From: a virus
Taxonomy: Duplodnaviria; Heunggongvirae; Uroviricota; Caudoviricetes
Virus record (IMG/VR): IMGVR_UViG_2579778982_000025
Coordinates: 1 to 20,390 of that record
Length of the DNA: 20,390 bases
Direction: 5' to 3' (one strand)
The notes under the pieces were generated by a model. It had not been told where the DNA came from. It did not search any database and saw only the letters and a program-made list of their open reading frames with translations. Positions 5,461 to 16,737 of the stretch are shown piece by piece; the first letter of the stretch is position 1, and every line of letters begins with the position of its first letter. The position numbers and the translations under genes are program-made.

Positions 5461-5473
5461 CCACGTAACGTGG
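5461..5473. promoter_or_regulatory. operator-like palindrome CCACG-TAA-CGTGG upstream of the repA control region
   Basis: Perfect 5-3-5 inverted repeat with the same CCAC(A/G)-N3-(C/T)GTGG architecture as the sites clustered in the cI/cro intergenic region; next to a TATGAT -10-like hexamer at 5475-5480. Confidence 0.4.
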
Positions 5474-5511
5474 TTATGATTGTGGGTGTCTGGTTGGAAA
5501 CTGACCAGATA

Positions 5512-5630
5512 TGGAAACAAAAAGCCCGCAGATAAATCTGCGGGCTTCTTGCGACATCCACGGAAAACCAACAACAACAATCCATGGGCGCCTCGACAAC
5601 TCCCATTATACGTTGGTTTTCCGTGGACGC
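5512..5630 (-). ncRNA. candidate CopA-like antisense RNA of the repA leader (IncFII-type copy-number control)
   Basis: Two hairpins in the repA leader. A long stem-loop has a 15-bp stem ccacggaaaaccaac (5558-5572) / gttggttttccgtgg (5612-5626) and a ~39-nt loop. On the minus strand it is followed by aagcccgcaga-ttta-tctgcgggctt (5522-5547) and then a T-run (complement of 5509-5520), a rho-independent terminator oriented for minus-strand transcription. The RNA ends are not mapped. Confidence 0.45.
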
Positions 5631-5642
5631 AAGAGCGAACAT

Positions 5643-6491
5643 ATGGATAGACCAATGCCGTCTCTACGTTCCGCTTACGTTTGTAATTTGTCGCCGGAGT
5701 TCCAGCCTCCAAAGCACCATACGCACAAGCTGCCGCTGGTGTTATCTGATGCTTTACAGCGCATTAATGGGCGTGATCTTACGTGTGAGGTTGCGTTCTA
5801 CGTTAATCAACCGTCAGAGCGGAAGCGCCGGATAAACGAGCATCGTCGTCGGGCGATTAATGCTGTGATCGCTGCGATTTTGCACCATGTAAACATCATT
5901 TCTAAGCGGGTTCTGGCTAGTGCTGAGGCGTTGGCTGATTTTTGCGGCCTGTCTACCGTATCCGAAGCTGGGAACAAGTCTATAACGCGCTGTACAAGGG
6001 CGTTGTCGCAACTGAAAGCGTTAGGGTTTATTGATTATGAACGTCGCTGGGATCGGGTGAATAAACAGTATTGGCCAGCGAAAATAGAGATTCGTGATCA
6101 ACTGCTGGAAACCGTTGGTATTACTGAACAAGCATGGAGACGTGCGGTTAGCCAGAAACTTAATTACTTCAATGCGAAGAATAGCGAACGGCTTAAAAAA
6201 GCGATAACGGAGGCTGATTATAAGCGTATTGTTATTCAGGAGCAGATGGAGAATGTATGGCGTCAGAGGAAGACGGCCAGAGAGATAAAGGCAAAACAGA
6301 AAGCAGCGGAGAGAGCTGCGCGTCTTGTTCGGGAAAAGGGAGAGGCCGAACTTCGTCATCAAATCACTAGAGAGGTTAGCCAGGAATTTGCTGATGGCAT
6401 GTATCCTGGAGCTGACCTTGCATATTTACGATCCCTCGTTGAGCAGCGTTATAACAGGTTAAGAAAGACCTGGAAATCACTCCAACATTAA
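5643..6491 (+). CDS. repA: plasmid replication initiator RepA (IncFII RepA1-like)
   Basis: ...GNKSITRCTRALSQLKALGFIDYERRWD... resembles the R100/R1 RepA1 motif (..KLSITRATRALTFLSELGLITYQ..), with an Arg/Lys-rich C-terminal half. Preceded by antisense-RNA-like hairpins and followed by a DnaA box plus AT-rich region. Start at ATG 5643 (MDRPMPSLRS...) is preferred because the ORF-track start at 5511 lies inside the antisense terminator hairpin. An IncFII-type leader peptide may exist in another frame ending at 5648-5650, but I cannot place its start. Confidence 0.75.
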   Translation: MDRPMPSLRSAYVCNLSPEFQPPKHHTHKLPLVLSDALQRINGRDLTCEVAFYVNQPSERKRRINEHRRRAINAVIAAILHHVNIISKRVLASAEALADFCGLSTVSEAGNKSITRCTRALSQLKALGFIDYERRWDRVNKQYWPAKIEIRDQLLETVGITEQAWRRAVSQKLNYFNAKNSERLKKAITEADYKRIVIQEQMENVWRQRKTAREIKAKQKAAERAARLVREKGEAELRHQITREVSQEFADGMYPGADLAYLRSLVEQRYNRLRKTWKSLQH

Positions 6492-6599
6492 CCCACCTTA
6501 ATGATGAATCCGGTTTTACCGGAGGATTATCTACGTCGCAATAAAATATCTGTTCAAAAAACAAGCTAAATTAATTTTCTCTAAACCTGAACACAGCAA

Positions 6600-6740
6600 A
6601 AATATCGCCTTCACAGGCATCGGCTAATAAAGTTATCCACAGTTTTGATATGTATATGCAAATGGTTTTTTATAATAGATGCACTAAACAAATAAATGCA
6701 AAATCACTTTCTTTTATTAAGACTTTCTTTATTTAACTTA
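6600..6740. other. putative replication origin (DnaA box plus AT-rich unwinding region)
   Basis: Perfect DnaA box TTATCCACA at 6633-6641, ~140 bp downstream of repA, followed by ~100 bp of very AT-rich sequence (6642-6740). Matches the repA-then-oriR layout of IncFII replicons. Confidence 0.5.
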
Positions 6741-7134
6741 CGCAGGCTTTGCCTGTGAATATGTTCGCCCTTGCAGCGAGCTAAAGCTCGCGCCGGTTCG
6801 AGTCGCTACGCTCAAATATACCTCCTCCGGCACTTGCCGGAGGCATGGAGCAGCCTGATCATCCTTTTCGAAACGGCGCGTTTCGAACTATACAAAATCA
6901 ATTTATATAAGGCCGAAATGAGGCCTACGGCCGGGCTTTGCAGGAGGAAGGAGCGAGCCTTATCGATAAACGTCGATAAATACGCACACAGTAGCCATCA
7001 GAACGCGATAAAACGTAAGAAACATCATTTCCTATTAGACATAGAAAACTTGTCTTATACGCAATGTAGTAAATTTCTATTGCCACATAGGAAAAGATTT
7101 CCTACCATCGTAGATATAATAAATGGAGATGGTT

Positions 7135-7422
7135 ATGGATAAAGATACTGTTTTAAAAATGTTGAATCCGGCTTGTTTAAAAAAAGCGGATGAATGGGAA
7201 TCTCCTACATGTGGAGAAGTTCGGGCAGTCATTGGCCTGACCGGAATGAGCGGCTCGCAGTTGGCCAAAAAACTAGGCTTAAAAGATAGTCGCAATGTTC
7301 GCAACTGGCAGATGTTAAAGGAGTCCACATCCAGATCCAGCATTCCGTATGCAGCCTGGGCGCTGCTGTGTTACTTCGCTGGGTTAGGGTTAATCTTCAT
7401 TGATAACAAAACAGATGTTTGA
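7135..7422 (+). CDS. hypothetical protein with putative HTH motif and hydrophobic C-terminus
   Basis: ATG 7135 preceded by GGAG (7125-7128). 95 aa, MDKDTVLKMLNPACLKKADEWESPTCGEVRAVIGLTGMSGSQLAKKLGL... ending in IPYAAWALLCYFAGLGLIFI. No family recognised. Confidence 0.5.
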   Translation: MDKDTVLKMLNPACLKKADEWESPTCGEVRAVIGLTGMSGSQLAKKLGLKDSRNVRNWQMLKESTSRSSIPYAAWALLCYFAGLGLIFIDNKTDV

Positions 7423-7445
7423 AACATGCAAATATGAGGTTTGTT

Positions 7446-7709
7446 ATGGAACTTGTACGCAAAACACGCAAAGAGTTCTTGGACCTGTATCGCATGGGAG
7501 CTTTCACTTGTGTTGTGGCTACCCAGGACGAAGTGACAAAAAGCTGGCGGCTTTTTGCTCTCAATAAAAAAGGGATTGCCGTTTTCATTGAAAAAGCCCG
7601 TGGTGGTATCCGCGAATGGGCGGGATTGAATTATGTGGCTGATTTTTGCGCAGCTATGGGGATTCGTCGCTGGGAAGTCCATATGCCAGGAGTAAAGTCA
7701 CAAAAATAG
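7446..7709 (+). CDS. hypothetical protein
   Basis: ATG 7446 preceded by GAGG with 6-nt spacing, 24 bp after the upstream gene, so likely one operon. 87 aa, MELVRKTRKEFLDLYRMGAFTCVVATQDEVTKSWRLFALNKKG.... ORF-track start 7419 is probably too long. Confidence 0.45.
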   Translation: MELVRKTRKEFLDLYRMGAFTCVVATQDEVTKSWRLFALNKKGIAVFIEKARGGIREWAGLNYVADFCAAMGIRRWEVHMPGVKSQK

Positions 7710-7891
7710 GGCTTTCGCGTCGAAAATGAGGCGAAACTGAAAACGAGATTTCATTAACAAATAAGCAACATAAAAAACGGTGGAAAACGCCCAGGAAAAC
7801 ATGATCTTTTGAGCGGATTTTTTAGATCCGACAATGAACGGTGATCCGGTGGTGCCGATAACGTCCATTATGTTAAATAGCCCCGTTTTTC

Positions 7892-7945
7892 TTGAAATTA
7901 TAACCTACGGGTTATATAGTTAGTGATATAAACTACAGGTTATAG
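7892..7945 (+). promoter_or_regulatory. sigma70-type promoter with two operator palindromes for the toxin-antitoxin operon
   Basis: TTGAAA (7892-7897) - 17 bp - TATAGT (7915-7920). Inverted repeats tataacc-tacg-ggttata (about 7899-7916) and atataaactacaggttatag (7926-7945) overlap the -10 and start region. RBS AGGA at 7944-7947. Confidence 0.55.
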
Positions 7946-7953
7946 GATTGAGC

Positions 7954-8301
7954 ATGTGGACGGTACTTTTTAGCCAGCGATTTGACGACTGGCTAAATGA
8001 GCAAGAAGACGCTCTTCAGGAAAAGGTTTTGGCTGATTTGAAAAAGCTACAGGTTTACGGACCTGAGTTACCCAGGCCATATGCCGATACCGTAAAAGGT
8101 TCTCGGTACAAAAATATGAAAGAGCTTCGCGTTCAGTTTTCTGGCCGTCCGATAAGAGCCTTTTATGCGTTCGATCCGATTCGCCGGGCCATCGTTCTTT
8201 GTGCAGGAGACAAAAGTAACGATAAACGGTTTTATGAAAAACTGGTGCGTATAGCTGAGGATGAGTTTGCAGCACATCTGAACACACTGGAGAGCAAGTA
8301 A
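7954..8301 (+). CDS. higB: type II toxin, RelE/ParE superfamily (HigB-like, phage Gp49-type addiction-module killer)
   Basis: MWTVLFSQRFDDWLNEQEDALQEKVLADLKKLQVYGPELPRPYADTVKGSRYKNMKELRVQFSGRPIRAFYAFDPIRRAIVLCAGDKSNDKRFYEKL.... Toxin-first order. Stop TAA overlaps the ATG of the downstream HTH gene by 1 nt. The ORF-track start 7948 is a TTG; ATG 7954 has the RBS. Confidence 0.7.
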   Translation: MWTVLFSQRFDDWLNEQEDALQEKVLADLKKLQVYGPELPRPYADTVKGSRYKNMKELRVQFSGRPIRAFYAFDPIRRAIVLCAGDKSNDKRFYEKLVRIAEDEFAAHLNTLESK

Positions 8302-8600
8302 TGAGAACATTAGATGAGGTGATTGCCAGCCGTTCACCTGAAAGCCAGGCGCGAATTAAAGAAATGGCAGATGAGATGATTCTTGAGGTCGGCTTGCAGA
8401 TGATGCGTGAAGAACTCCAGTTATCACAAAAACAGGTTGCTGAGGCGATGGGTATAAGCCAGCCAGCAGTAACAAAGCTGGAGCAGCGCGGAAATGATTT
8501 AAAGCTGGCGACGTTAAAACGTTACGTTGAAGCTATGGGAGGCAAATTAAGCCTGGATGTTGAGCTTCCCACAGGAAAGCGAGTAGCGTTCCATGTCTAA
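8301..8600 (+). CDS. higA: type II antitoxin, XRE-family HTH (HigA-like)
   Basis: 99 aa with central HTH (LSQKQVAEAMGISQPAVTKLEQ). Translationally coupled to the upstream toxin gene. Confidence 0.7.
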   Translation: MRTLDEVIASRSPESQARIKEMADEMILEVGLQMMREELQLSQKQVAEAMGISQPAVTKLEQRGNDLKLATLKRYVEAMGGKLSLDVELPTGKRVAFHV

Positions 8601-8612
8601 CATAATGTAAGT

Positions 8613-8640
8613 GTAAGGCCCCATTGGGGCCTTACTTATT
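8613..8640. terminator. bidirectional terminator
   Basis: gtaaggcccc-attg-gggccttac hairpin followed by ttatttactt, between convergent genes. Confidence 0.6.
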
Positions 8641-8924
8641 TACTTACCATTTTTGCGGTTTTTTTCGGACTTCATAAGCTGGCTAACGCGCCCTGGTGTG
8701 ATATTTAACATGCGGCTTACTTCAGCTTGTGATCCTACTTCCTCTACTAGCGATGCAACATAGCGAGATTTTCCTGAGGAGGTTAATCCATTATATGTTG
8801 CTCGTGCGACTTTTCCCTGAGCTTCTCTCATATCAACTAATGCCTGAGCAACTTGCTCAAAACCTTTAATTGTTACTTCTGTTAATGCTCGAATAGCATC
8901 AATTTCAGATTTTGGTTTAGCCAT
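8640..8924 (-). CDS. putative DNA-binding regulator (C-terminal HTH)
   Basis: MAKPKSEIDAIRALTEVTIKGFEQ...VGSQAEVSRMLNITPGRVSQLMK. ATG at 8924 with GAGG 6 nt upstream. ORF-track start 8936 is a TTG. Confidence 0.5.
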   Translation of the reverse strand: MAKPKSEIDAIRALTEVTIKGFEQVAQALVDMREAQGKVARATYNGLTSSGKSRYVASLVEEVGSQAEVSRMLNITPGRVSQLMKSEKNRKNGK

Positions 8925-8972
8925 TTGGTACCTCAAATTGTTTAAAATGTGTTAATTACAAAATTCAGCCGA

Positions 8973-8997
8973 TACCATGTTCAATGGTATACCATTG
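8973..8997. promoter_or_regulatory. palindromic operator candidate (CAATGGTATACCATTG)
   Basis: Perfect 16-bp palindrome at 8982-8997, overlapping a second inverted repeat TACCAT-N5-ATGGTA (8973-8989), in the divergent intergenic region between 8640..8924 and 9192..9572. Confidence 0.4.
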
Positions 8998-9085
8998 CTG
9001 AAATGTCTTTTTCAAGACCTTGCCAATAAGCTAAACAAAAATGTTTAATCATTCGCCTAAAAAAACACCAGTCACTATTATTTAT

Positions 9086-9186
9086 ATAATTATATATTTA
9101 TATAAAAAGTGCTTTACAGGTGGGAAAAAATTTCCTAAGGTTATACCCGAAACCGAGCGATACCCGCCCTGGTTAAACCGGAGATA
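9086..9186 (+). promoter_or_regulatory. repeated promoter / 5'UTR cassette, copy 1
   Basis: Near-identical to 19153..19252. Contains TTTACA - 17 bp - TAAGGT (TATGGT in copy 2) promoter-like hexamers, a ~55-nt leader and a GGAG RBS, preceded by AT-rich palindromes. Confidence 0.5.
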
Positions 9187-9191
9187 ACCCG

Positions 9192-9572
9192 ATGAGCATG
9201 ATTAAAATCCGCAAAAACGCTTTCCTTAAAATTCAAACTATCCTGGCTGGTTCTGTTGGCGTGATTTGCCGTTCTTCTTCAAGCCGCATCGATGACGGCT
9301 ACGATGATGAGTACCGTGTGTCCTCGTGCGATGAGGCTTTAACCTGGCTGAAGGAGAATCAGGAACGTGCCCAGGTATATCTGGAAACAGAGAACGGCAA
9401 TCAGATGCTGCGTATTAGCGGTCGTTATGGATTTGAAACTACATTCATGGCCTATTTTAATCAGGCTTACTTTGACAAGGAGTTGGCCTGGTACACTGAT
9501 CGCATGAGCAAAAGCGAGCCAGCCCCGATTACACCGCCGAACAATAAACCATTTTTATTCCTCGTTAAGTAA
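9192..9572 (+). CDS. hypothetical protein
   Basis: 126-aa ORF driven by the repeated promoter cassette. Acidic, no recognisable motif. Confidence 0.5.
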   Translation: MSMIKIRKNAFLKIQTILAGSVGVICRSSSSRIDDGYDDEYRVSSCDEALTWLKENQERAQVYLETENGNQMLRISGRYGFETTFMAYFNQAYFDKELAWYTDRMSKSEPAPITPPNNKPFLFLVK

Positions 9573-9580
9573 ACACAATA

Positions 9581-9607
9581 CGCAAAGTGTCATTTTGACA
9601 CTTTGCG
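9581..9607. promoter_or_regulatory. 27-bp perfect palindrome (hairpin or operator)
   Basis: cgcaaagtgtca-ttt-tgacactttgcg, 9 nt after the 9192..9572 stop and 29 nt before the XRE-family gene. No U-tract follows, so it is an operator or RNA stability element rather than a classic terminator. Confidence 0.4.
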
Positions 9608-9635
9608 AGTGTTAATATTGTGCGAGGAGGATGCT

Positions 9636-9908
9636 ATGACGGGTTATGAATTGAAATTATGGCGTCGTGGGATGAACTGGACGCAGGAGCGAGCCGCCGA
9701 AGAATTTGGGATATCGTTGGCTACATATAAGCGATATGAGAAGGGGGAGCCGCCGAGGGTCATTGAGATGGCCATTCGCGTTCTGTCGTTTGACGATATG
9801 GTGAAGGATCTTTCACACCTTGATAAAGACGCGATTCTGTTAAGGCTGCAAACCCTTGTATGGGAAAAGGTTAAAGTGTCGTCAGAATTGGAACAAGGGA
9901 TCAAATGA
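9636..9908 (+). CDS. XRE-family HTH transcriptional regulator
   Basis: MTGYELKLWRRGMNWTQERAAEEFGISLATYKRYEKGE.... RBS GAGGAGG (9624-9630). The ORF-track start 9603 is upstream of the RBS. Confidence 0.7.
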   Translation: MTGYELKLWRRGMNWTQERAAEEFGISLATYKRYEKGEPPRVIEMAIRVLSFDDMVKDLSHLDKDAILLRLQTLVWEKVKVSSELEQGIK

Positions 9909-9957
9909 TCCTTTACGGATCGTTTTATGGTGGTGTAATGTAAGCGCCAGAAAGACA

Positions 9958-9985
9958 AAAACCGCCTTGCCGGGCGGTTTTCAGT
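9958..9985 (+). terminator. rho-independent terminator
   Basis: aaaaccgcc-ttgccg-ggcggtttt hairpin, then tcag. Confidence 0.5.
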
Positions 9986-10543
9986 CTGAAATTTAAATCT
10001 TGCTTGGTAGGCTGGATTTAAAAAGACACCTCTTGATTGGGGCGGCTTTCTTGCGTCTAAAGATAATCAAATCTTTTTGCGCCTGCAACCCCTTTTTTAC
10101 TGGTGCCTGTTTCAGACTCACGCTCGCGTCGTTGTCTTTGCCACTTCGTTGGGTTCGGTGTTTTTGGGCGGAGTGGCGCGCGGGTATGCGTACAAGGGGA
10201 AAGTGTGCTGACGCAAGCCAGGAACAGCGATCTAAACTAAGTCGAGTCTGAGAAAGGCAGGAGTGCGACAACTCGCCTGTGCTCTATGAGCAGAAGAAGG
10301 TATATCAGACGACCAATGGCATGATTGTGGGCCACAGGGCGCACACGGCGGCGAAGCATTGGAAACGATGTGGAGCTATCTGGTGGCATGAGTTCCGGTA
10401 CTCGATCTCGAGCTTTTTTTGATGCTTTTGAGAAGGGGCCGGAACTCCGGTAAAGGGCACCCTGTATGGGGGGAGGGGGGGTTGTGTCTAAAGGAAGATC
10501 CAATACGATATTGCTTTACCCTTATATCTAAAAGGAGATTTCT

Positions 10544-11179: not shown

Positions 11180-11188
11180 GAATTGAAG

Positions 11189-11216
11189 AAGCGCCCAAAT
11201 CGGGCGCTTTGTTTTA
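11189..11216. terminator. bidirectional terminator
   Basis: aagcgccc-aaatc-gggcgctt followed by tgtttt, between convergent genes. Confidence 0.6.
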
Positions 11217-12356
11217 TGGTTTTGCACCTGCGGCCAGTTTATCCGCCGATATCTTTATCAGTTCCTGTAGTGTCCTGGCTGGTAGGTTTGCATCCAGTAC
11301 GCTGAGTATGCTGCTGTGATCTGCCTGGTCGACTACTTTGCCTGTCGGTGGTAGTAGCTTGAGCTGAGGATTCAGGTTTTCGTCAAAGCTGATCAGTGCT
11401 CTGGCGTTTCTGAGCAGATCAAGAAGTAAGGCTGATATCACATTTTCCTGAGTCATTGCTGGCAGATTTAGCGCCGCTTTGGTTTTCCCTGTTGCCTTGT
11501 CAAACTCCTTGATTAGTTCCTTCCTGTAGTTCGGTTCCGTTAATAGCCGATTATGCTCTGTTGCCGCGCGGATAATCGTTTTTTCCTGGTACAGTCGTTT
11601 AGCCAGATCACGCTCGTACTGTGTTTTTAACACGCTGCTGATAGCGTTAAAGGCTTCAATGTAGGCCAGCTTGATATCTTTCACGCTTGGACCGTCGATG
11701 CTCTCCATGAGTAAGGTAAATCCGTCTTTTGTCATGCGATAGATTGTTATTTCGCGGTCGCTTCCTTCCAGCGGTCGTTGCTCTTTAAAGAAGTGACGCG
11801 CCGCAGCCGTGCGAGGAATGCGTAGCGCATCGATGGCCATAACGATGGAATTGTTTGTGGTGCTGAATGCCTGGGCAACATCGGCTGAGGTTGTGAGTGG
11901 CTCGTTGTTGCACACTTTAATGTAAAACATCGGTTTGGCGTTGAGCGTATCGACAACCTCACGAGCATTGTTTGGCGAGACGGTAACGGTCGCGGCCGTT
12001 TGCGCGTTCTGGTTGAAGTAGCAGTCTTCCAGCCGTTCGAACACATCCCACGCTTGGTTAGTTTCAAGCATTTTGGCGTGACGTGCAGCCCCGCGTTCGG
12101 TCCAGAGGATTAGTTTTCTAACGTTATTCGCGATGGTTTGAAAATCTCTTAAAGAGATTTTCAAACTTTGGAGATCTGTACCTTTTACAACTATGAAATG
12201 TTTTCCTTCTGTAAACCGGGACTTATTACGGTGGTGATTTCTGTGAAGACATTCGACGCTACAGCCATATAGTTTGGCAAGCAGCTCCGTGGTGATAACG
12301 GGGATCTGGTTATGCAGGATAGGCTGTAGGGTGTTAACGGTCGGAAGCGTTTTCAT
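11214..12356 (-). CDS. phage antirepressor-like protein (ORF6N/Rha-type N-terminal DNA-binding domains, long C-terminal region)
   Basis: 380 aa. N-terminal ...ITTELLAKLYGCSVECLHRNHHRNKSRFTEGKHFIVVKG... resembles ORF6N-type antirepressor domains; a second similar segment ...TTSADVAQAFSTTNNSIVMAIDAL follows. Family assignment is from memory of motifs only. Confidence 0.55.
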   Translation of the reverse strand: MKTLPTVNTLQPILHNQIPVITTELLAKLYGCSVECLHRNHHRNKSRFTEGKHFIVVKGTDLQSLKISLRDFQTIANNVRKLILWTERGAARHAKMLETNQAWDVFERLEDCYFNQNAQTAATVTVSPNNAREVVDTLNAKPMFYIKVCNNEPLTTSADVAQAFSTTNNSIVMAIDALRIPRTAAARHFFKEQRPLEGSDREITIYRMTKDGFTLLMESIDGPSVKDIKLAYIEAFNAISSVLKTQYERDLAKRLYQEKTIIRAATEHNRLLTEPNYRKELIKEFDKATGKTKAALNLPAMTQENVISALLLDLLRNARALISFDENLNPQLKLLPPTGKVVDQADHSSILSVLDANLPARTLQELIKISADKLAAGAKP

Positions 12357-12640
12357 TTTGCACCTCCCATAACTACTTTGGTTACGAGGGAGATTTTTGC
12401 GTCAGAAACAGCGTTATCGTTGCTGGCGATGCGCATAGCTTCGCGCTCGATGATTTCAGCCAGGCGGAATTTATCGGCGTATGAGGCTTTCTTGAGAAGG
12501 ATCTTTACGAGGTTGACGTAATAGTCATGGGGTAAGTTTGTCATGATGATAGTTCCAGTTTTGATATTGGAATAATCACCACCGCTGACGCCAATCAGTG
12601 AGGTGGTGAGACGTACAGGGTTGGCGTAACCGGTCATCAT
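12353..12640 (-). CDS. hypothetical protein
   Basis: Stop overlaps the start of the antirepressor-like gene in an ATGA arrangement, suggesting translational coupling. Start ambiguous between 12640 and an internal ATG (MTNLPHD...). Confidence 0.4.
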   Translation of the reverse strand: MMTGYANPVRLTTSLIGVSGGDYSNIKTGTIIMTNLPHDYYVNLVKILLKKASYADKFRLAEIIEREAMRIASNDNAVSDAKISLVTKVVMGGAK

Positions 12641-12844
12641 GATACCCGGCGAGCCTTACGGCTCCCCCGCACGCCCCACCATAATTCGGGTGTAGCTGTG
12701 CTTTACGCATAAAAAAACCGCTAACGCGGTATGCGCCATGATGATTATCGGGACGCCAATCCCGACCGTAGATTTTGCTACGGCTCGGAAAGTGTCCACC
12801 AATGGCGCATTTATGTCAATACAGCGGGATTTTAACAGACTAAA

Positions 12845-12857
12845 CCACATAGTGTGG
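12845..12857. promoter_or_regulatory. operator-like palindrome CCACA-TAG-TGTGG
   Basis: Same motif class as the cI/cro operators; in the divergent intergenic region 12641-12994. Confidence 0.4.
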
Positions 12858-12883
12858 GTTTGAATGCGGGGCTTTTAATTTTC

Positions 12884-12912
12884 TTGATATGCTAAAAACG
12901 GGAATGTATAGT
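12884..12912 (+). promoter_or_regulatory. sigma70-type promoter for 12995..13534
   Basis: TTGATA (12884-12889) - 17 bp - TATAGT (12907-12912). Confidence 0.5.
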
Positions 12913-12994
12913 TCCTGTAAGGAATCAATTAGTCCTGAGTTATGGTGTTTTGTTAAAGTCGGGAACAAGAAAAAATTCAGTATGGGGATAAAAA

Positions 12995-13534
12995 ATGATT
13001 GAACTGTCAAAAAACTCATGTTTTTCAACCATTCACCTAATGATCATAAAAGAACTTAGGCTAGAAAGAGGTGTGCATCAAGGAGTACTGGCTCAAGCTG
13101 CTGGAAAAACACCAAACGCATGGACAAAGATAGAGAACGGGCAGTCTGTATTAACAGTTGACGCCCTTTTTGGTGCTTTCACAGCCCTTAATATTACTCC
13201 AGTGAATTTCATGTCATTGGTAGAAAATCTTATTCCCGAATTTAACCGTTATGGTTACTTCTTTTTCCCTGGAACAATCAGTCAGGACGAGGATAACCTT
13301 TTACCTCTGATGCTGCGTTACTTTAATAGCAAGGGGTTTGAAGCATTGAGAAATAGGCCATTCGAAAGAGTTAGCATTAGCTCAATGGGATTCTCATTTG
13401 GGGGCGGCATCCCTGTTACTCCAACTGCTGTAATGTATTGTTGCGATGAAGCATATAGAAATTGGGTCGATAACGGTGCTGATGTGGATAATCGAGATTA
13501 TCTGGAGTCATCAACAGGTCGTGGACTGTTTTAA
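12995..13534 (+). CDS. HTH (XRE-like) domain protein with C-terminal domain of unknown function
   Basis: 179 aa. N-terminal LMIIKELRLERGVHQGVLAQAAGKTPNAWTKIENGQSV is HTH-like. RBS GGGGA upstream of ATG 12995. Confidence 0.55.
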   Translation: MIELSKNSCFSTIHLMIIKELRLERGVHQGVLAQAAGKTPNAWTKIENGQSVLTVDALFGAFTALNITPVNFMSLVENLIPEFNRYGYFFFPGTISQDEDNLLPLMLRYFNSKGFEALRNRPFERVSISSMGFSFGGGIPVTPTAVMYCCDEAYRNWVDNGADVDNRDYLESSTGRGLF

Positions 13535-13553
13535 TGAGTGAAGAAACAAAAAA

Positions 13554-13580
13554 ACCGTCCTATTGAGGACGGTCCTTTCG
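13554..13580 (+). terminator. weak rho-independent terminator
   Basis: accgtcc-tattga-ggacggt followed by cctttcg, preceded by an A-run. Confidence 0.35.
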
Positions 13581-13726
13581 TGCTGATCGGATTCGCGGTC
13601 CTTTCAGCATTACGTTGTTGTATAAACAACCACGCAAGCACAAGCAGCAAATTGATTTTACTCAAAAGGTAATAATAGTCCACTATTATACATCAAAAAA
13701 TTGTGGTTCTTGTTGTGTCAGCAAAC

Positions 13727-13739
13727 TCACAGATTGTGG
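13727..13739. promoter_or_regulatory. operator-like palindrome TCACA-GAT-TGTGG
   Basis: Same motif class; flanking aaactcac matches the site at 16685. Confidence 0.35.
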
Positions 13740-13971
13740 GTAGGTTACTGATTTTGTGAAAATAAACTGTTTTTTTCGTTTAATTTCTTTCCTATTACTA
13801 ATCTTAAAATAATCGTAAAATACCTGTGGACCTTCCCGCCGATTCGCACCCGGGCACCGACTTTAGGGGAGGATTTCCTGTTGCCGTACATGCAAGCACA
13901 AGCAGCCGTGCTTGCTCTCGCGTTGTTTTCGTCGGTGGGGATGTCGTGAAACGGCCTGTAAGGGCCACACA

Positions 13972-14094
13972 ATGAAAAAATACTACATGTGTATTTTTAT
14001 CGTTGTTACTGGAGCTTTGTTTACGCCACATGGGGAGGGTTGGAAGATTACTGATAACGCTCTGAATGTGACGATAAACATTAGCAGCAAGTAG
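13972..14094 (+). CDS. small hydrophobic peptide (40 aa), candidate small membrane protein or type I toxin
   Basis: MKKYYMCIFIVVTGALFTPHGEGWKITDNALNVTINISSK. RBS AGGG 7 nt upstream. Strong terminator immediately downstream. Confidence 0.4.
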   Translation: MKKYYMCIFIVVTGALFTPHGEGWKITDNALNVTINISSK

Positions 14095-14099
14095 CGATT

Positions 14100-14123
14100 A
14101 GGCCCCTTCGGGGGCCTTTTTTA
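14100..14123 (+). terminator. rho-independent terminator
   Basis: aggcccc-ttcg-ggggcct followed by tttttta. Confidence 0.7.
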
Positions 14124-14132
14124 TGGTTGAAT

Positions 14133-14282
14133 TTAAACGCTTGAGCGCATTAAGCCTTTCAGAACTGCTTCACGTACCCATTCTGGCCTGGTGGATAGCA
14201 GGGCAAATAAGCGACCAGCTTGCAGCCGTTTGAGGTCGGTTAGACGAGTTTTCAGTAACCGTGTATATTGTTGTTCGGACAT
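14133..14282 (-). CDS. small hypothetical protein (49 aa)
   Basis: MSEQQYTRLLKTRLTDLKRLQAGRLFALL...; ATG 14282 preceded by AAGGGGA. Co-oriented with and downstream of the partition genes. Confidence 0.35.
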   Translation of the reverse strand: MSEQQYTRLLKTRLTDLKRLQAGRLFALLSTRPEWVREAVLKGLMRSSV

Positions 14283-14344
14283 AACAAATTCCCCTTGTTG
14301 TGTCGCGACGGCCAACAGTTGGCGCTGGAGGCCGTCACCTTCTC

Positions 14345-14593
14345 TTACTTCTGGTTGTATTGAGCCTTGAGTAACTCAAAAGATTTTGTCAGCACTTCTT
14401 TCAATGACATATCCATTGAGCTGGCGAATGTTTTGTACTCACGTTTAAATTCAGGGTCGACGTTAAACGCCATTTGTGCCCCACCTGATTTGGTTCTGGT
14501 TGGCGTTTCAGTCGGGTCGAAAACCTGCGGTTGTTCGATCGATGGCGGTACGCCTTTGCTGTTCTTCTTTGGTGGTTTTGATGGTGCGGCCAT
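14345..14593 (-). CDS. ParG-like ribbon-helix-helix partition / centromere-binding protein
   Basis: 82 aa with a basic, flexible N-terminus and C-terminal ...AQMAFNVDPEFKREYKTFASSMDMSLKEVLTKSFELLKAQY, resembling RHH ParG-type partners of small ParA ATPases. RBS AGAGGGG. Immediately downstream of parA. Confidence 0.55.
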   Translation of the reverse strand: MAAPSKPPKKNSKGVPPSIEQPQVFDPTETPTRTKSGGAQMAFNVDPEFKREYKTFASSMDMSLKEVLTKSFELLKAQYNQK

Positions 14594-14636
14594 GTGTATC
14601 CCCTCTTATATAAATCTATAAAACTATAATTATATA

Positions 14637-15290
14637 TTACGCGGCAGTAGTCAGAGCCTCAAGCTGGTTGATAATCCCCTGAATAACGTCGTCTGCCTTT
14701 TTGCGTGGCGCAACGTATGAGCACTCAATGAGGCTTAAGCCCTTATCCTGAGCTTTGCTCAGAGCTGGCTTGTGGGGAATGTACTTATCGACAACAAAGT
14801 ATGGCGTATTAGCCAGGTACTCTTGGGCTTCAATGTAGTCGGCTTCGTTTTCAGCCGCGCCTGAGAACACCATGCAAATTTTCTTGATTGGCACACCCTT
14901 TTTAACGATGCCATGAGCTGTGTTAACGGTGGTTTCCAGGTCATCGGTAGAGAATCTGGTTGGCAAAATAACCATATCCAGAAATTCAGAGAGCTTCGGT
15001 ACTGATTCAGATGCGTAGGCACCGCCATCGACGATAACCAGGTCGTATACTTCTGATTCGATGATTTTCTGGACTTGTGATGGTGTGCCGCACGGCTGCG
15101 CCGCGATTGCAGGTTCGATATTGTTGGCCATTCTGCGTTGTACCCAACGCGTTACCGTTCCGTTAAGCACATCCATATCGATCAGGCATACATTCCAGCC
15201 GGCCTTTGCATAAGCAACTGCTAAAGCACGGGCAATTGTTGATTTGGTTACGCCGCCTTTTCCGTTGAAAATACCTACAGAGATAGTCAT
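14637..15290 (-). CDS. parA: ParA-family partition ATPase (small type Ib, deviant Walker A)
   Basis: MTISVGIFNGKGGVTKSTIARALAVAYAKAGWNVCLIDMD... has the KGGxxK[ST] deviant Walker A at the N-terminus. 217 aa from ATG 15290; the ORF-track start 15305 adds 5 residues without an RBS. Confidence 0.75.
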   Translation of the reverse strand: MTISVGIFNGKGGVTKSTIARALAVAYAKAGWNVCLIDMDVLNGTVTRWVQRRMANNIEPAIAAQPCGTPSQVQKIIESEVYDLVIVDGGAYASESVPKLSEFLDMVILPTRFSTDDLETTVNTAHGIVKKGVPIKKICMVFSGAAENEADYIEAQEYLANTPYFVVDKYIPHKPALSKAQDKGLSLIECSYVAPRKKADDVIQGIINQLEALTTAA

Positions 15291-15305
15291 TTGTCGAGAC
15301 TCCAT

Positions 15306-15420
15306 GTGTTTGGTTATATAATTCTATAAATCTATATTTATAGAACGAGGTAAGCATAACCAACTTTTTGGCGGATGAAAAGTGTTTTATATAATTATAT
15401 AAATCTATAATCATATAAGC
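15306..15420. repeat. AT-rich palindromic repeat cluster upstream of parA (candidate centromere / partition operator)
   Basis: Two blocks, ttatataattctataaatctatatttataga (15314-15344) and ttttatataattatataaatctataatcatata (15385-15417), built from TATAAATCTATA and TATATAATTATA units. Confidence 0.45.
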
Positions 15421-15440
15421 GGGCGTTAGCCCGCTTGCAG

Positions 15441-15815
15441 TCAGAGGTCAGCTATCGTTGATATCAGTTGATTTGCTAGCTGTCGCTGTTTACGTGAGAG
15501 GGTTAGAGCAGCTTCTGAGCGGTCGCTAAGAGGGGTGTTTTCATCAAGAATCATGAGGCATACAGAAATAATAGCCCTGTTATATGCCATCAATGGCTGG
15601 CACAGCTTCGATACCGCTGGCACATCGTATTGTAAGGCCGTTTTGAGGCAGACTTTTTGTTCTGATGCCAGATGAAGGATAGATTCTATCCAGTCGATAT
15701 CTTTCTCATTATCAATGATTTGGCATAACATACACTCAATCGCTATGTTCAACGCTTGGATTTCGATTCCAGCAGTGATCAGAGTTTCGTTTTTATTGGC
15801 TGTATGTAATTCCAT
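15441..15815 (-). CDS. hypothetical protein encoded downstream of and co-oriented with the repressor gene
   Basis: 124-aa ORF with RBS AGAGG; no motif recognised. An operator-like palindrome lies just upstream. Confidence 0.5.
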   Translation of the reverse strand: MELHTANKNETLITAGIEIQALNIAIECMLCQIIDNEKDIDWIESILHLASEQKVCLKTALQYDVPAVSKLCQPLMAYNRAIISVCLMILDENTPLSDRSEAALTLSRKQRQLANQLISTIADL

Positions 15816-15851
15816 GCGTAGCCTCTTTTATACTTTTACATGTTGTCAAAA

Positions 15852-15864
15852 CCACAAAATGTGG
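15852..15864. promoter_or_regulatory. operator-like palindrome CCACA-AAA-TGTGG
   Basis: Perfect inverted repeat within aaaccacaaaatgtggttttttt, between the repressor gene and 15441..15815. Confidence 0.45.
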
Positions 15865-15907
15865 TTTTTTTGAGCGTAGAAATGCACGGCTTTCGCCGTG
15901 CTGTGTA

Positions 15908-16564
15908 TCATAACCAGTTGACAACACTAACTACGCGGCCAAGAACTTTATAACGCTTAAATTCCTCGTTATTCAGATGATTAGTGTTCATTTCAGCGTC
16001 CCTTTCGGTTGACAGCATAACAGCATTGTCACCCGGTATGACTCTACAGTGCCTCAAAACAACCAGGCCATTTCTGTCTTCAAGGGCATAGATCCCCTCA
16101 TGAATCTCTGTATCGTCTGTATCAATCAGGACTTGGGAGCCAGGGGATATTGTTGGTGACATTAACTCATCGTTGCTCTGGAGAACTGACAGAGACGATG
16201 GGTTGATGTTCTTGCTTCGTAGAATCTCCTGTTCTATCGCCAGCACTGGCTTTTCTCCGGCGTGCGATGCTATGTCATTTTTTATAGCTACAAGCCCAGG
16301 AATAACAGGAGCGTTAGTATTCTGGGGTGGGAACGGGTTATCTGTTAAGCACGCGATATAAGGCGCTGATGCTTTCAGGGCGTGCGCGATTTTCTTGATG
16401 GCAGGTATAGATGGTTGTCTTAATCCGGCCTCATAGTTCTGCAAGGTGCTTAAGCCTATTCCAGTGACTTGCTGGAGATCTCCGGCAGTCATGCCGGATT
16501 GTTTCCGTAGAGTCTGAATGCGCAGACCTATTTCTTTCTTGATGTTCTCGTCGTTGCTTTTCAT
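15908..16564 (-). CDS. CI/LexA-like phage repressor (N-terminal HTH, C-terminal S24 peptidase-like autocleavage domain)
   Basis: 218 aa. N-terminal HTH (LRKQSGMTAGDLQQVTGIGLSTLQNYEAG). C-terminal region with MSPTISPGSQVLIDT and KVLGRVVSVV resembles the Ser/Lys dyad regions of LexA and lambda CI. Divergent from a Cro-like gene, with operators between. Confidence 0.8.
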   Translation of the reverse strand: MKSNDENIKKEIGLRIQTLRKQSGMTAGDLQQVTGIGLSTLQNYEAGLRQPSIPAIKKIAHALKASAPYIACLTDNPFPPQNTNAPVIPGLVAIKNDIASHAGEKPVLAIEQEILRSKNINPSSLSVLQSNDELMSPTISPGSQVLIDTDDTEIHEGIYALEDRNGLVVLRHCRVIPGDNAVMLSTERDAEMNTNHLNNEEFKRYKVLGRVVSVVNWL

Positions 16565-16602
16565 GTCTCATCAATCGTGAATGGTGGGTTATTTATACAT
16601 TA

Positions 16603-16718
16603 CCACATTTAGTGGTTTTCACATGGTAAGACGAGAGGTGGACCACAAATAGAAGGTTATTTTTTGTTTCGCCCATTGAAAAACTCACGATATGTGGTTT
16701 TAATACCACATATCGTGG
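16603..16718. promoter_or_regulatory. immunity-region operators and PR-like promoter
   Basis: Operator-like sites CCACA-TTT-AGTGG (16603-16615), TCACG-ATA-TGTGG (16685-16697) and CCACA-TAT-CGTGG (16706-16718). The last two are inverted copies of each other, 21 bp centre to centre. They bracket a strong promoter TTGAAA (16676-16681) - 17 bp - TTTAAT (16699-16704) reading into the Cro-like gene. Confidence 0.6.
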
Positions 16719-16737
16719 TTTAACTGGAGTTCGTTAA

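What the first reader, a model, noticed from the sequence alone, without database searches (positions are those of the whole stretch)
5461..16718. A dispersed CCAC(A/G)-N3-(C/T)GTGG operator family defines a putative repressor regulon
Seven sites share the 5-3-5 palindrome: 5461, 12845, 13727, 15852, 16603, 16685 and 16706. Three cluster between the CI-like and Cro-like genes and overlap a strong TTGAAA-N17-TTTAAT promoter. The others sit upstream of repA, in the antirepressor/HTH divergent region, in the long leader of a small-peptide gene, and just downstream of the repressor gene. This suggests one repressor controls immunity, replication and accessory loci.
Basis: seen in the sequence. Interest (0 to 1): 0.65.

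Follow-up and report, generated by a model that had tools for sequence, protein, structure and literature searches.

The report
Phage-plasmid repressor operators, dispersed set
A 19-bp palindrome (AAACCACA-N3-TGTGGTTT) marks the likely binding sites of this phage-plasmid's CI-like repressor at its lysis/lysogeny switch, its replication gene and the operon next to the repressor gene, a design already known from phages N15 and P1.

Summary
CCACR-N3-YGTGG has 4 exact matches against 0.05 expected, and 9 with up to one mismatch against 1.3 expected. Six score 21.5-27 bits, where the best score in shuffled sequence was 17.5. Site 13727 is marginal at 15.9 bits.

The window is a ~48-kb Escherichia/Yersinia phage-plasmid of the recently described "p-p47" family. 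Relatives whose repressor is 66% and 33-36% identical keep an identical recognition helix. They also keep sites, or TGTGGTT half-sites, at the switch, just downstream of cI, and right after a conserved extended -10 promoter of repA.

I read this as a non-cleavable CI-like repressor with lambda-like OR sites, an OL-like site and a repA operator. That is the logic of the N15/phiKO2 CB repressor, here placed over an IncFII RepA with a CopA-like antisense RNA.

- Only two of the three sites overlap P_R.
- The "antirepressor" site sits at -67 of a P1-type isrK/C4-icd-ant operon and occurs only in the Escherichia-type relatives sampled.
- The ryfA-proximal site is not conserved even in 97%-identical relatives.

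No binding data exist. I class it as a new member of a known kind.

The parts
16703..16721 (.). O1: operator ATACCACATATCGTGGTTT (core 16706-16718), covering the start region of P_R
   Evidence: Exact match. Scores 26.3 bits. Conserved in L003 and L015, with a half-site in Serratia-type relatives.
16682..16700 (.). O2: operator AACTCACGATATGTGGTTT (core 16685-16697), in the 17-bp spacer of P_R. Its centre is 21 bp from that of O1.
   Evidence: One mismatch. Scores 22.0 bits. Its position within the spacer is conserved in all relatives.
16676..16704 (+). P_R: TTGAAA-17-TTTAAT, the rightward early promoter for the 164-aa gene and its operon (inferred)
   Evidence: Sequence. Equivalent hexamers are found in relatives (TTGATA/TTAAAT, TTGAAA/TTTAAT, TTGATA/GAATAT).
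16643..16656 (+). Asymmetric variant site CCACAAATAGAAGG, between O4 and O2. Its binder is unknown.
   Evidence: Conserved as CCACAAACAGGAGG in L003 and CCACGAAAAGAAGG in L015. A second copy per genome lies upstream of the lysis genes, outside the window.
16600..16618 (.). O4: operator TTACCACATTTAGTGGTTT (core 16603-16615), overlapping the putative extended -10 TGgTAATGT (16605-16597, minus strand) of the cI promoter
   Evidence: One mismatch. Scores 23.1 bits. Identical in L003 and near-identical in L015. Promoter coordinates (inferred).
15908..16564 (-). CI-like repressor gene (218 aa): Xre-type HTH plus a degenerate S24-like C-terminal domain
   Evidence: Pfam HTH_3 at 4.5e-11; S24 hit below cut-off; phrog_4 at 1.8e-27. 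Recognition helix invariant in relatives. Ser/Lys dyad apparently lost.
16738..17232 (+). First rightward gene (164 aa), a positional analogue of cro. Function unknown.
   Evidence: phrog_7452, unknown function. No Pfam, NCBIfam or PDB hit. Conserved in all relatives.
15884..15901 (-). GC-rich hairpin immediately after the cI stop codon, the probable cI terminator
   Evidence: GCACGGC-TTTC-GCCGTGC, conserved in the window, Salmonella and Serratia.
15849..15867 (.). OL-like operator AAACCACAAAATGTGGTTT (core 15852-15864). It lies between the cI terminator and the 124-aa gene, 751 bp from O4.
   Evidence: Exact match. Best score in the window, 27.0 bits. Conserved in L003 at 27.5 bits. Present as two TGTGGTT half-sites 21 bp apart in Serratia-type relatives.
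15441..15815 (-). Conserved 124-aa gene of unknown function, the first gene leftward of the OL-like site
   Evidence: phrog_7632. No other family or PDB hit. Syntenic in L003 and L004.
5458..5476 (.). repA operator AAACCACGTAACGTGGTTA (core 5461-5473), at about +1 to +20 of the proximal repA promoter
   Evidence: Exact match. Scores 25.1 bits. Conserved in L003 and L014, in Serratia (ACCCCGAAATGTGGTTT) and in L016.
5442..5450 (+). Proximal repA promoter: extended -10 element TGgTAGAGT (inferred)
   Evidence: TGnTAGAGT is invariant in the window, Salmonella, Serratia and L016.
5326..5353 (+). Distal repA-leader promoter TTGACT-16-TATGAT (inferred)
   Evidence: A 10/12 consensus match. Conserved in relatives.
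5512..5632 (-). CopA-like antisense RNA gene: promoter TTGCGT(5632-5627)-16-TATAAT(5610-5605), an ~87-nt RNA, terminator at 5547-5519. It is not part of the operator set but is the second layer of repA control.
   Evidence: Consistent with the copy-up mutations reported in the preprint.
5643..6491 (+). repA (IncFII RepA family). The start is probably Met45 or Met49 of the 5511 ORF.
   Evidence: Pfam IncFII_repA at 1.3e-43, with the match beginning at residue 53. Relatives are annotated at 277-278 aa.
12842..12860 (.). Candidate operator AAACCACATAGTGTGGGTT (core 12845-12857), centred at -67 of the isrK/C4-icd-ant promoter. Found only in the Escherichia-type relatives sampled; its role is unclear.
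   Evidence: Exact match. Scores 21.5 bits. Present in L001, L002, L007-L010, L012 and L013. Absent in L003.
12599..12819 (-). Promoter TTGACA(12819-12814)-17-GACACT(12796-12791), isrK, a1/b1-like targets and the C4 antisense RNA of the antirepressor operon
   Evidence: Rfam hits for C4 (81 bits), isrK (70.9 bits) and c4-a1b1 (41 bits). Promoter coordinates.
11214..12356 (-). Antirepressor (ORF6N + Phage_pRha), the inferred inducer that inactivates CI
   Evidence: Pfam 5.2e-18 and 1.6e-12; anti-repressor PHROGs.
13724..13742 (.). Marginal candidate site AACTCACAGATTGTGGGTA (core 13727-13739), ~95 nt upstream of the ryfA-like RNA
   Evidence: One mismatch. Scores 15.9 bits, within the range of shuffles. 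Present in L007 but absent in L001 and L002.

Best explanation
The sites are operators of the phage-plasmid's own CI-like repressor (218 aa, Xre-type HTH_3 N-terminal domain plus a degenerate S24-like C-terminal domain, 15908-16564 minus strand). Each operator is a ~19-bp palindrome, AAACCACA-N3-TGTGGTTT, suited to an HTH dimer.

At the switch:
- O1 (16706) and O2 (16685) are 21 bp apart centre to centre. They cover the +1 region and the spacer of the rightward promoter TTGAAA-17-TTTAAT, so occupancy shuts off the early-right operon.
- O4 (16603) overlaps a putative extended -10 (TGgTAATGT) of the leftward cI promoter, which would give negative autoregulation.

Outside the switch:
- A site at 15852 follows the cI terminator hairpin and precedes the conserved 124-aa gene. 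It is an OL-like operator and a possible looping partner 751 bp from O4.
- A site at 5461 lies at about +1 to +20 of a conserved extended -10 promoter (TGgTAGAGT, 5442-5450) in the repA leader, upstream of the CopA-like antisense RNA target. In a lysogen the repressor would therefore also throttle repA transcription. This adds a transcriptional layer, functionally replacing IncFII CopB, on top of antisense control of copy number.

Induction: the catalytic Ser/Lys of LexA-type autocleavage appear to be replaced. Induction is therefore inferred to go through the ORF6N+Rha antirepressor of the P1-type isrK/C4-icd-ant module. Inactivating CI would then derepress early genes and repA together.

Shown: motif enrichment, positions, conservation, gene and RNA identities.
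Inferred: which protein binds, the promoters and transcription starts, and the direction of regulation.
For: Statistics. A matrix trained only on the three window OR sites finds, as the top five hits of the whole 44.5-kb Salmonella plasmid, its O1, O2, O4, the cI-downstream site and the repA-upstream site. All score at least 20 bits against a shuffle maximum of 16.6.

Architecture: the operator in the spacer and at +1 of P_R is conserved in all relatives.

Constraint: in non-coding DNA, window versus Salmonella, site arms are 88% identical (44/50). Other non-coding positions are 60% identical (119/199) and site centres 62%.

Protein: HTH_3 E=4.5e-11, phrog_4 transcriptional repressor E=1.8e-27. 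The recognition helix STLQNYEAG is invariant while overall identity falls to 36%, which matches the conserved TGTGGTT half-site.

repA: TGnTAGAGT-N19-GTGGTT is conserved in Escherichia, Salmonella and Serratia-type relatives. In L016 the left arm of the repA site (TCCCA) resembles the left arm of that phage's own OR site (CCCCA).

The operator is outside the CopA-like RNA. That RNA has promoter TTGCGT-16-TATAAT at 5632-5605 and a terminator at 5547-5519. The 87-nt fold is -41 kcal/mol, z=-6.2, with a UUG-repeat loop. This is consistent with the copy-up mutations reported 58-86 nt upstream of repA (bioRxiv 10.64898/2026.08.19.745698).

The same preprint reports one high-copy mutant whose only relevant change was a SNP in 'a potential transcriptional regulator' on the element.

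Precedent: N15/phiKO2 CB lacks the Ser/Lys dyad, binds three OR and two OL operators at the repA promoter, and lowers copy number (PMC4997575).
Against: - No binding, footprint, transcription-start or reporter data exist for any site.
- The promoters at repA P2, the cI promoter and the 124-aa gene are consensus-level inferences. I could not find a convincing promoter overlapping the 15852 site.
- The regulator mutated in the preprint's mutant is not named, so it may not be CI.
- No heteroimmune relatives were found. repA and this CI co-occur almost one to one in PLSDB (63 versus 61 records). A strict test of covariation between operator and repressor was therefore impossible.
- The 12845 site is at -67, not a repression position, and is lineage-specific.
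- Site 13727 is marginal.
Confidence: 0.72

Rival explanations
1. The palindromes are bound mainly by another element-encoded regulator, either instead of CI or together with it. The chief candidate is the 164-aa product of the first rightward gene (16738-17232), acting as the lytic Cro-type repressor.
For: The 164-aa gene is conserved in every relative at the cro position. Its N-terminus is predicted to be helical. In lambdoid phages CI and Cro share operators. An asymmetric variant motif, CCACR-N4-GRAGG, occurs once in OR and once more per genome upstream of the lysis region, which hints at a second specificity.
Against: No HTH or any other family is detectable in the 164-aa protein. The AF2 model is of low confidence, pLDDT 49. 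In phiKO2 and PY54, Cro binds only one operator and not the repA sites (PMC4997575). The 179-aa HTH protein (12995-13534) is excluded, because its gene is missing in relatives that keep the sites.
Confidence: 0.12
2. Only the cI-proximal cluster is functional. The distant copies (5461, 12845, 13727) are non-functional look-alikes, or remnants carried along by recombination of modules.
For: Site 12845 is absent from the Salmonella relatives and sits at -67. Site 13727 scores within the range of shuffles and is missing in 97%-identical relatives. The family has a highly mosaic accessory region.
Against: Site 5461 scores 25.1 bits, where no shuffle exceeded 17.5. Its position after the TGnTAGAGT element is kept in Salmonella (20-21 bits), Serratia (15.8 bits, second best in 26.8 kb) and L016. 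All sites are intergenic.
Confidence: 0.1
3. The palindromes act as RNA hairpins in the transcripts that contain them, as terminators, processing sites or stabilising 5' stem-loops, rather than as protein-binding DNA.
For: The extended arms fold at -5.6 to -8.8 kcal/mol. The 15852 copy is followed by a T-run on the plus strand. O2 plus O1 can form a -24 kcal/mol hairpin. A transcript from repA P2 would begin with the 5461 hairpin.
Against: - The arms never covary; they are simply conserved. In Serratia-type relatives only one arm (TGTGGTT) survives, often as direct repeats 21 bp apart, which cannot form hairpins.
- The T-run at 15852 and the O2/O1 super-hairpin are not conserved in Salmonella or L015.
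- O2 lies in a promoter spacer, upstream of the transcription start.
- The genuine terminators nearby are separate GC-rich hairpins (15884-15901, 5519-5547).
Confidence: 0.03
4. The motif is the target of a partition or global regulator of the KorB/ParB type, serving as centromere and operator at once.
For: One site lies upstream of the 124aa-parA-82aa gene block. RK2 KorB binds a dispersed 13-bp palindrome that controls replication and partition (own knowledge).
Against: parA has its own AT-rich repeat array directly upstream (15314-15345 and 15387-15418) and again at 14607-14636, which are the likelier par operator or centromere. The triple site over divergent cI and early promoters is the hallmark of an immunity switch. 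No ParB/KorB-like DNA-binding domain was found in the 124-aa or 82-aa proteins.
Confidence: 0.03

Closest known systems
N15 / phiKO2 prophage repressor CB with OR (cB-cro) and OL (repA promoter) operators
   Same: - A plasmid prophage.
- An HTH repressor that lacks the LexA-type Ser/Lys dyad.
- Three operators between the repressor gene and the first lytic gene.
- Further operators at the promoter of the replication initiator gene, so that the immunity repressor also sets copy number (PMC4997575).
- A separate antirepressor locus controlled by a small processed RNA (own knowledge for N15 immA).
   Different: - N15 is a linear plasmid with a protelomerase and a 1,300-aa multifunctional RepA adjacent to cB. 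This element is circular, with a ~280-aa IncFII-type RepA 10 kb from cI and an additional CopA-like antisense RNA.
- The operator sequence differs: N15 has 16 bp with T-A-N10-T-A, against AAACCACA-N3-TGTGGTTT here.
- Here the site adjacent to cI precedes a 124-aa gene and the par genes, not repA.
- Sequence homology of the two repressors was not tested.
Bacteriophage P1 C1 regulon and immI (c4-icd-ant) module
   Same: - One repressor with operators dispersed over a plasmid prophage, including replication functions (22 operators; PMC8546580).
- This element carries a bona fide P1-type C4 antisense RNA (Rfam RF01695, 81 bits), a1/b1-like targets, an icd-like ORF starting inside C4, and a translationally coupled antirepressor.
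   Different: - P1 C1 belongs to a different protein family and recognises an asymmetric 17-bp site (ATTGCTCTAATAAATTT). The repressor here is Xre/CI-like and its sites are palindromes.
- P1 C1 controls the lytic replicon repL, not the plasmid replicon.
- There are only 6-7 sites here.
Lambda-type CI/Cro switch (OR1-3, OL1-3)
   Same: - Divergent repressor and early-lytic genes.
- Multiple ~17-19-bp palindromic operators overlapping both promoters.
- Adjacent sites at a helical-repeat spacing that suggests cooperativity (21 bp).
- A second operator location on the other side of cI.
   Different: - The catalytic dyad is apparently lost, so RecA-type autocleavage is unlikely.
- The first lytic gene encodes 164 aa with no recognisable Cro fold.
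- O4 is 82 bp from O2 rather than contiguous with it.
- There is an extra operator at a plasmid replication gene.
IncFII (R1/NR1) copy-number control: CopB repression of PrepA plus CopA antisense RNA
   Same: - An IncFII_repA family initiator (Pfam 1.3e-43).
- Two tandem promoters in the leader.
- An ~87-nt two-hairpin antisense RNA between promoter and repA.
- Copy-up mutations in that RNA (preprint).
   Different: - There is no copB gene.
- The proximal promoter carries the phage repressor's operator instead.
- The Rfam CopA model gave no hit at E<=1.

Membership tests
Lambdoid CI/Cro immunity switch | Divergent repressor and lytic genes, with several palindromic operators overlapping both promoters | tested here: met
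   O1 and O2 lie over TTGAAA-17-TTTAAT. O4 lies over the putative TGgTAATGT of the cI promoter. The arrangement is conserved in 6 relatives.
Lambdoid CI/Cro immunity switch | Repressor with an HTH N-terminal domain and an S24 C-terminal domain carrying the catalytic Ser/Lys (RecA-stimulated autocleavage) | tested here: not met
   HTH_3 is present (4.5e-11). The S24 hit is below Pfam's cut-off (19.4 versus 23.3 bits). In a MAFFT alignment with LexA, lambda CI and UmuD, the Ser aligns with Glu/Asp and the Lys with an invariant Arg.
Lambdoid CI/Cro immunity switch | A small Cro-family DNA-binding protein encoded by the first rightward gene | tested here: inconclusive
   The 164-aa protein has no Pfam, NCBIfam or PDB match and belongs to phrog_7452, unknown function. 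The single-sequence AF2 model has pLDDT 49 and a helical N-terminus.
N15/phiKO2 CB-type regulon | Immunity repressor operators at the promoter of the plasmid replication initiator gene | tested here: met
   A 25-bit site at 5458-5476 lies directly after the conserved TGnTAGAGT element. The arrangement is conserved in Salmonella and Serratia-type relatives. The test is positional only.
N15/phiKO2 CB-type regulon | The repressor binds these sites and lowers copy number | not testable with these tools
   The only hint is one high-copy mutant with a SNP in an unnamed 'potential transcriptional regulator' of the element.
N15/phiKO2 CB-type regulon | Linear plasmid prophage with protelomerase and a large multifunctional RepA | tested here: not met
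   Related records are circular. RepA is IncFII-type, about 280-326 aa.
P1 C1 regulon / immI | Asymmetric 17-bp C1 operators and a C1-family repressor | tested here: not met
   The sites are two-fold symmetric and the repressor is Xre/CI-like. The P1 consensus is taken from PMC8546580.
P1 C1 regulon / immI | c4 antisense RNA - icd - ant operon | tested here: met
   Rfam hits: C4 81 bits (gathering score 45), isrK 70.9 bits (gathering score 50), c4-a1b1 41 bits (below its gathering score of 46.7). An icd-like ORF at 12640-12353 overlaps the start of ant. Ant carries ORF6N and Phage_pRha domains.
IncFII copy-control (CopA/CopB) | IncFII RepA with an antisense RNA gene in the leader | tested here: met
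   Pfam IncFII_repA at 1.3e-43. The antisense promoter has a perfect TATAAT, and the terminator shows compensatory changes in Serratia. The fold has z=-6.2. The Rfam CopA model itself gave no hit.
IncFII copy-control (CopA/CopB) | CopB repressor gene upstream of the proximal repA promoter | tested here: not met
   There is no plausible ORF between the invertase gene and repA.

The most novel reading that the evidence does not exclude
The IncFII-type replicon is the element's only replicon, and the CI operator at its proximal promoter is the device that converts it from a CopA-limited, low-copy plasmid replicon into the lytic replicon once the antirepressor inactivates CI. No other replication initiator is annotated in complete relatives.

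One corollary follows: partial loss-of-function alleles of cI, or operator mutations, would be a second route to the clinically observed copy-number heteroresistance.

The variant motif CCACR-N4-GRAGG, found at OR and at the late/lysis region, would mark a second, related specificity that ties late genes into the same circuit.
Probability: 0.3. Interest if true: 0.55.

Novelty: new member of a known kind. Interest (0 to 1): 0.42.

Why it matters
The element belongs to a phage-plasmid family that was recognised only recently. The family is common in E. coli (about 60 PLSDB plasmids share this repressor and repA) and is implicated in piperacillin-tazobactam heteroresistance through copy-number increase. 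Its immunity circuit has not been described.

A defined operator and a short list of target promoters give three things:
- a concrete, testable link between lysogeny control and copy number;
- a possible explanation for the one copy-up mutant that mapped to a regulator rather than to CopA;
- a marker for predicting immunity groups in this family.

Conceptually it repeats the N15/P1 principle, that a prophage repressor also governs plasmid functions. The difference is that it is built on an IncFII/CopA replicon.

Tried and rejected
1. The 5461 palindrome as a stem-loop of the CopA antisense RNA. Rejected. The antisense gene (promoter 5632-5605, terminator 5547-5519, UUG-repeat loop) lies 45 nt or more downstream, and this matches the preprint's mutation window.

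2. One-mismatch hits at 1254 and 13512 as extra sites. Rejected, because they are absent from the 25 best-scoring positions of the matrix scan (the lowest of those scores 2.8 bits).

3. The 179-aa HTH protein as the binder. Rejected, because its gene is absent in relatives that keep the sites.

4. DnaA boxes. The half-site AAACCACA matches TTATCCACA at only 6 of 9 positions (inspection only).

5. A LexA box in the window. None found.

6. A covariation test using heteroimmune relatives. Not possible:
- The GTDB scan found nothing.
- In PLSDB, repA and this CI co-occur.
- All relatives share the recognition helix.

7. A structure of the 164-aa protein.

8. A convincing sigma-70 promoter overlapping the 15852 or 12845 sites. 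None found.

9. The Python sandbox received only some loci (L001, L003, L005), so the other relatives were inspected with the sequence tools instead.

Full report
WHAT THE WINDOW IS

The window is 97% identical to the Yersinia phages vB_YpM_39/41/44 (49 kb, circular). It is also 96-98% identical to about sixty ~48-kb non-mobilisable Escherichia plasmids, including a plasmid of E. coli ATCC 25922. These elements carry P2/Mu-like tail genes together with an IncFII RepA and a ParA. They correspond to the "p-p47" phage-plasmid family described in a 2026 preprint, which says nothing about repressors or operators.

Genes relevant to the finding:
- Invertase (about 4775-5329).
- RepA (ORF 5511-6491). 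The Pfam match starts at residue 53, and relatives are annotated from the equivalent of Met45/Met49, that is 5643/5655.
- A P1-type immI module on the minus strand: isrK 12784-12711, C4 RNA 12686-12599, an icd-like ORF 12640-12353, and the ORF6N+Rha antirepressor 12356-11214.
- An accessory 179-aa HTH gene (12995-13534).
- A ryfA/timP-like toxin RNA (13826-14122).
- An 82-aa gene, ParA and a 124-aa gene (14345-15815, minus strand).
- The CI-like repressor (15908-16564, minus strand).
- A rightward operon that starts with a 164-aa protein (16738-17232).

Yes. CCACR-N3-YGTGG occurs 4 times against 0.05 expected. With up to one mismatch it occurs 9 times against 1.32 expected. The flanks show that the unit is AAACCACA-N3-TGTGGTTT.

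I built a symmetrised 19-bp matrix from the cI-proximal sites only (window plus two relatives). It recovers the four dispersed sites as the best non-training hits:
- 15852: 27.0 bits, the best in the window
- 5461: 25.1 bits
- 12845: 21.5 bits
- 13727: 15.9 bits
- next hit: 11.2 bits
- highest score in 200 shuffles: 17.5 bits

Six sites are therefore solid and 13727 is marginal. The other two one-mismatch hits are noise. All seven sites fall in the 22% of the window that is non-coding.

COMPARATIVE EVIDENCE

Syntenic relatives exist at two depths:
- Salmonella plasmids and IMG/VR contigs with CI 62-66% identical (L003, L014, L015).
- Serratia-type elements with CI 30-36% identical (L004/L005, L016-L019).

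The recognition helix STLQNYEAG is invariant in the three repressors I aligned (window, Salmonella, Serratia). The same half-site is therefore expected, and it is found.

A matrix trained only on the window's three OR sites was run on the complete Salmonella plasmid. Its five top hits are O1, O2, O4, a site just downstream of cI, and a site upstream of repA. All score at least 20 bits against a shuffle maximum of 16.6.

In non-coding DNA aligned between the window and Salmonella, the arms of the sites are 88% identical. The surrounding non-coding DNA is 60% identical and the central triplets 62%.

In the Serratia-type relatives one arm, (A/T)TGTGGTT, survives at the same three locations. At the switch it lies in the spacer and after the -10 of a conserved rightward promoter. 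Downstream of cI it appears as two copies 21 bp apart. Upstream of repA it is also present.

The element TGnTAGAGT-N19-GTGGTT upstream of repA is found in every relative whose locus reaches repA, except the L017/L019 type.

ANATOMY AND INFERRED MECHANISM

At the switch:
- P_R is TTGAAA(16676-16681)-17-TTTAAT(16699-16704).
- O2 (16685-16697) fills the spacer.
- O1 (16706-16718) covers the start region.
- The centres of O1 and O2 are 21 bp apart, two helical turns.
- O4 (16603-16615) overlaps TGgTAATGT (16605-16597, minus strand), a plausible extended -10 for cI. The corresponding sequence is TGgTAAAGT in Salmonella and TGgTAATGT in L015.
- Between O4 and O2 lies a conserved asymmetric variant, CCACAAATAGAAGG (16643-16656), discussed below.

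Downstream of cI, a GC-rich hairpin (15884-15901) is conserved in all three lineages and is the likely cI terminator. The 15852 site follows it and lies 37-49 nt before the ATG of the conserved 124-aa gene. This position is analogous to OL of lambda and N15. I could not identify a convincing promoter there. Its role, whether repression of the 124-aa gene, a roadblock, or a looping partner 751 bp from O4, remains open. parA has its own AT-rich repeat array.

At repA there are four features:
- A distal promoter, TTGACT-16-TATGAT (5326-5353).
- A proximal conserved extended -10 (5442-5450).
- The operator at about +1 to +20 (5458-5476).
- A CopA-like antisense gene on the minus strand: TTGCGT-16-TATAAT at 5632-5605, and an 87-nt two-hairpin RNA ending in a strong terminator at 5547-5519. 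The fold is -41 kcal/mol with z=-6.2, and the terminator stem shows compensatory changes in Serratia.

The large loop of that RNA contains a UUG triplet repeat 60-85 nt upstream of the probable RepA start. This fits the preprint's recurrent 3-bp deletion and SNPs located "58 to 86 nt upstream of repA". The 5461 palindrome is therefore not part of CopA. It occupies the place that the CopB operator holds in R1, and there is no copB gene.

The preprint also reports one copy-up mutant without a repA-region mutation but with a SNP in an unnamed "potential transcriptional regulator" of the element. That is what the model predicts for a cI mutant, but the gene's identity is unknown.

The repressor's C-terminal domain is only weakly S24-like. 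No LexA box is present in the window. I therefore infer induction through the antirepressor of the C4-icd-ant module, as in P1 and N15.

THE TWO WEAK MEMBERS

Site 12845 is centred 67 bp upstream of the isrK/C4 transcription start. That start is implied by the Rfam isrK model (its first position is 12784) and by the promoter TTGACA(12819-12814)-17-GACACT.
- The site stays with this promoter when the neighbouring 179-aa HTH gene is absent (L007).
- It is missing in the Salmonella relatives, where the sequence diverges exactly upstream of the -35.
- At -67 it could activate, occlude an UP element, or serve as a looping site. Simple repression of ant is not supported.

Site 13727 lies ~95 nt upstream of the ryfA-like RNA and overlaps a weak leftward promoter-like hit. 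The ryfA upstream region is a different allele, without the site, in vB_YpM_41 and in the E. albertii plasmid.

RIVAL EXPLANATIONS

- RNA hairpins are unlikely. Only one arm is conserved at depth, sometimes as direct repeats, and the O2/O1 super-hairpin and the T-run at 15852 are lineage-specific.
- A ParB/KorB-type binder is unlikely, because parA has its own repeats.
- Binding by the 164-aa protein cannot be excluded, but nothing identifies it as a DNA-binding protein.
- The dispersed sites could be non-functional look-alikes. For 5461 and 15852 their scores and deep positional conservation argue against this. For 13727, and less so for 12845, it remains possible.

COMPARISON WITH KNOWN SYSTEMS

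The closest system is N15/phiKO2 CB. [quoted passage not shown] It has been shown to repress repA and to lower copy number (PMC4997575).

P1 C1 is the classical dispersed regulon on a plasmid prophage, with 22 asymmetric operators (PMC8546580). P1 is also the apparent source of the C4-icd-ant module type found here.

The present case differs in three ways: the operator sequence, the replicon (IncFII RepA plus CopA-like RNA, with no CopB), and the fact that repA lies 10 kb from cI.

It is therefore a new member of a known kind, in a family whose regulation has not been described.

VERDICT

- Confidence that these are operators of the CI-like repressor: about 0.7.
- Interest is moderate (0.42). 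The system is tidy, clinically relevant and directly testable, but it is not conceptually new.

Noticed in passing
window 11214-12819 (minus strand): A complete P1/Gifsy-type antirepressor module. It comprises the promoter TTGACA-17-GACACT, isrK (12784-12711), c4-a1b1-like targets (12797-12745), the C4 antisense RNA (12686-12599), an icd-like 95-aa ORF that starts inside C4 and overlaps the ant ATG, and a 380-aa ORF6N+Rha antirepressor. The 64-aa and 95-aa ORFs hit 'Ash' and regulator PHROGs, probably because ORFs have been called across the conserved RNA genes.
   Followed up: partly
window 16643-16656; also L001 24146-24159 and L003 32050-32063 (outside the window, ~6.5 kb to the right): An asymmetric variant motif, CCACR-N4-GRAGG(TT), occurs exactly twice per genome in most relatives long enough to cover both places (e.g. 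L001, L003, L008, L009, L011, L014, L015). One copy lies between O4 and O2. The other lies upstream of the lysis genes, where it is part of a larger inverted repeat followed by a strong terminator, a P_R'/qut-like layout. It may mark a second regulator or a heterotypic site.
   Followed up: partly
window 5512-5632 (minus strand): A CopA-like antisense RNA gene. It has the promoter TTGCGT-16-TATAAT, an 87-nt transcript with a 16-nt UUG-repeat loop, and a strong terminator. The Rfam CopA model does not detect it. The annotated 326-aa RepA ORF probably starts at Met45 or Met49 (5643/5655).
   Followed up: yes
window 13826-14122 (+) and 13548-13726 (minus strand): A ryfA/timP-like type I toxin RNA (Rfam 144.7 bits) with the small ORF MKKYYMCIFIVVTGALF... 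(13974-14094). Next to it lies a putative leftward small RNA ending in the terminator GGACCGTCC...GGACGGTTTTTTT (13575-13548), with a weak RNAI-like Rfam hit at 13547-13642.
   Followed up: no
window 15314-15418 and 14607-14636: AT-rich repeats (TTATATAATTCTATAAATCTATA...) lie directly upstream of parA and again between parA and the 82-aa gene. They are a likely par operator or centromere, distinct from the CCAC motif.
   Followed up: partly
L001 29259-29298 and L003 36178-36217 (outside the window): A conserved pair of half-degenerate sites (AAACAKCTTAATGTGGTTT-nn-TTACCACTTTCWGTGTTRA) lies at the very start of a ParB/Srx-like gene near the packaging genes. It has the same inner GTGG-N8-CCAC geometry as O2/O1. 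It could be a low-affinity double operator, or it could be conserved only because it is coding sequence.
   Followed up: no
window 8972-8990: An unrelated perfect-armed 19-bp palindrome, ATACCATGTTCAATGGTAT, lies in an intergenic region downstream of the higB/HTH pair. It may be the operator of another regulator.
   Followed up: no
window 15908-16564: The C-terminal domain of the CI-like repressor appears to have lost the LexA-type catalytic dyad (Ser to Glu/Asp, Lys to Arg, invariant in three lineages). The window contains no LexA box.
   Followed up: partly
window ~1000-5329: A Mu/P1-type invertible G segment, 94-96% identical to Mu, D108 and P88. It carries alternative tail-fibre and assembly genes and a Gin/Hin invertase.
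   Followed up: no
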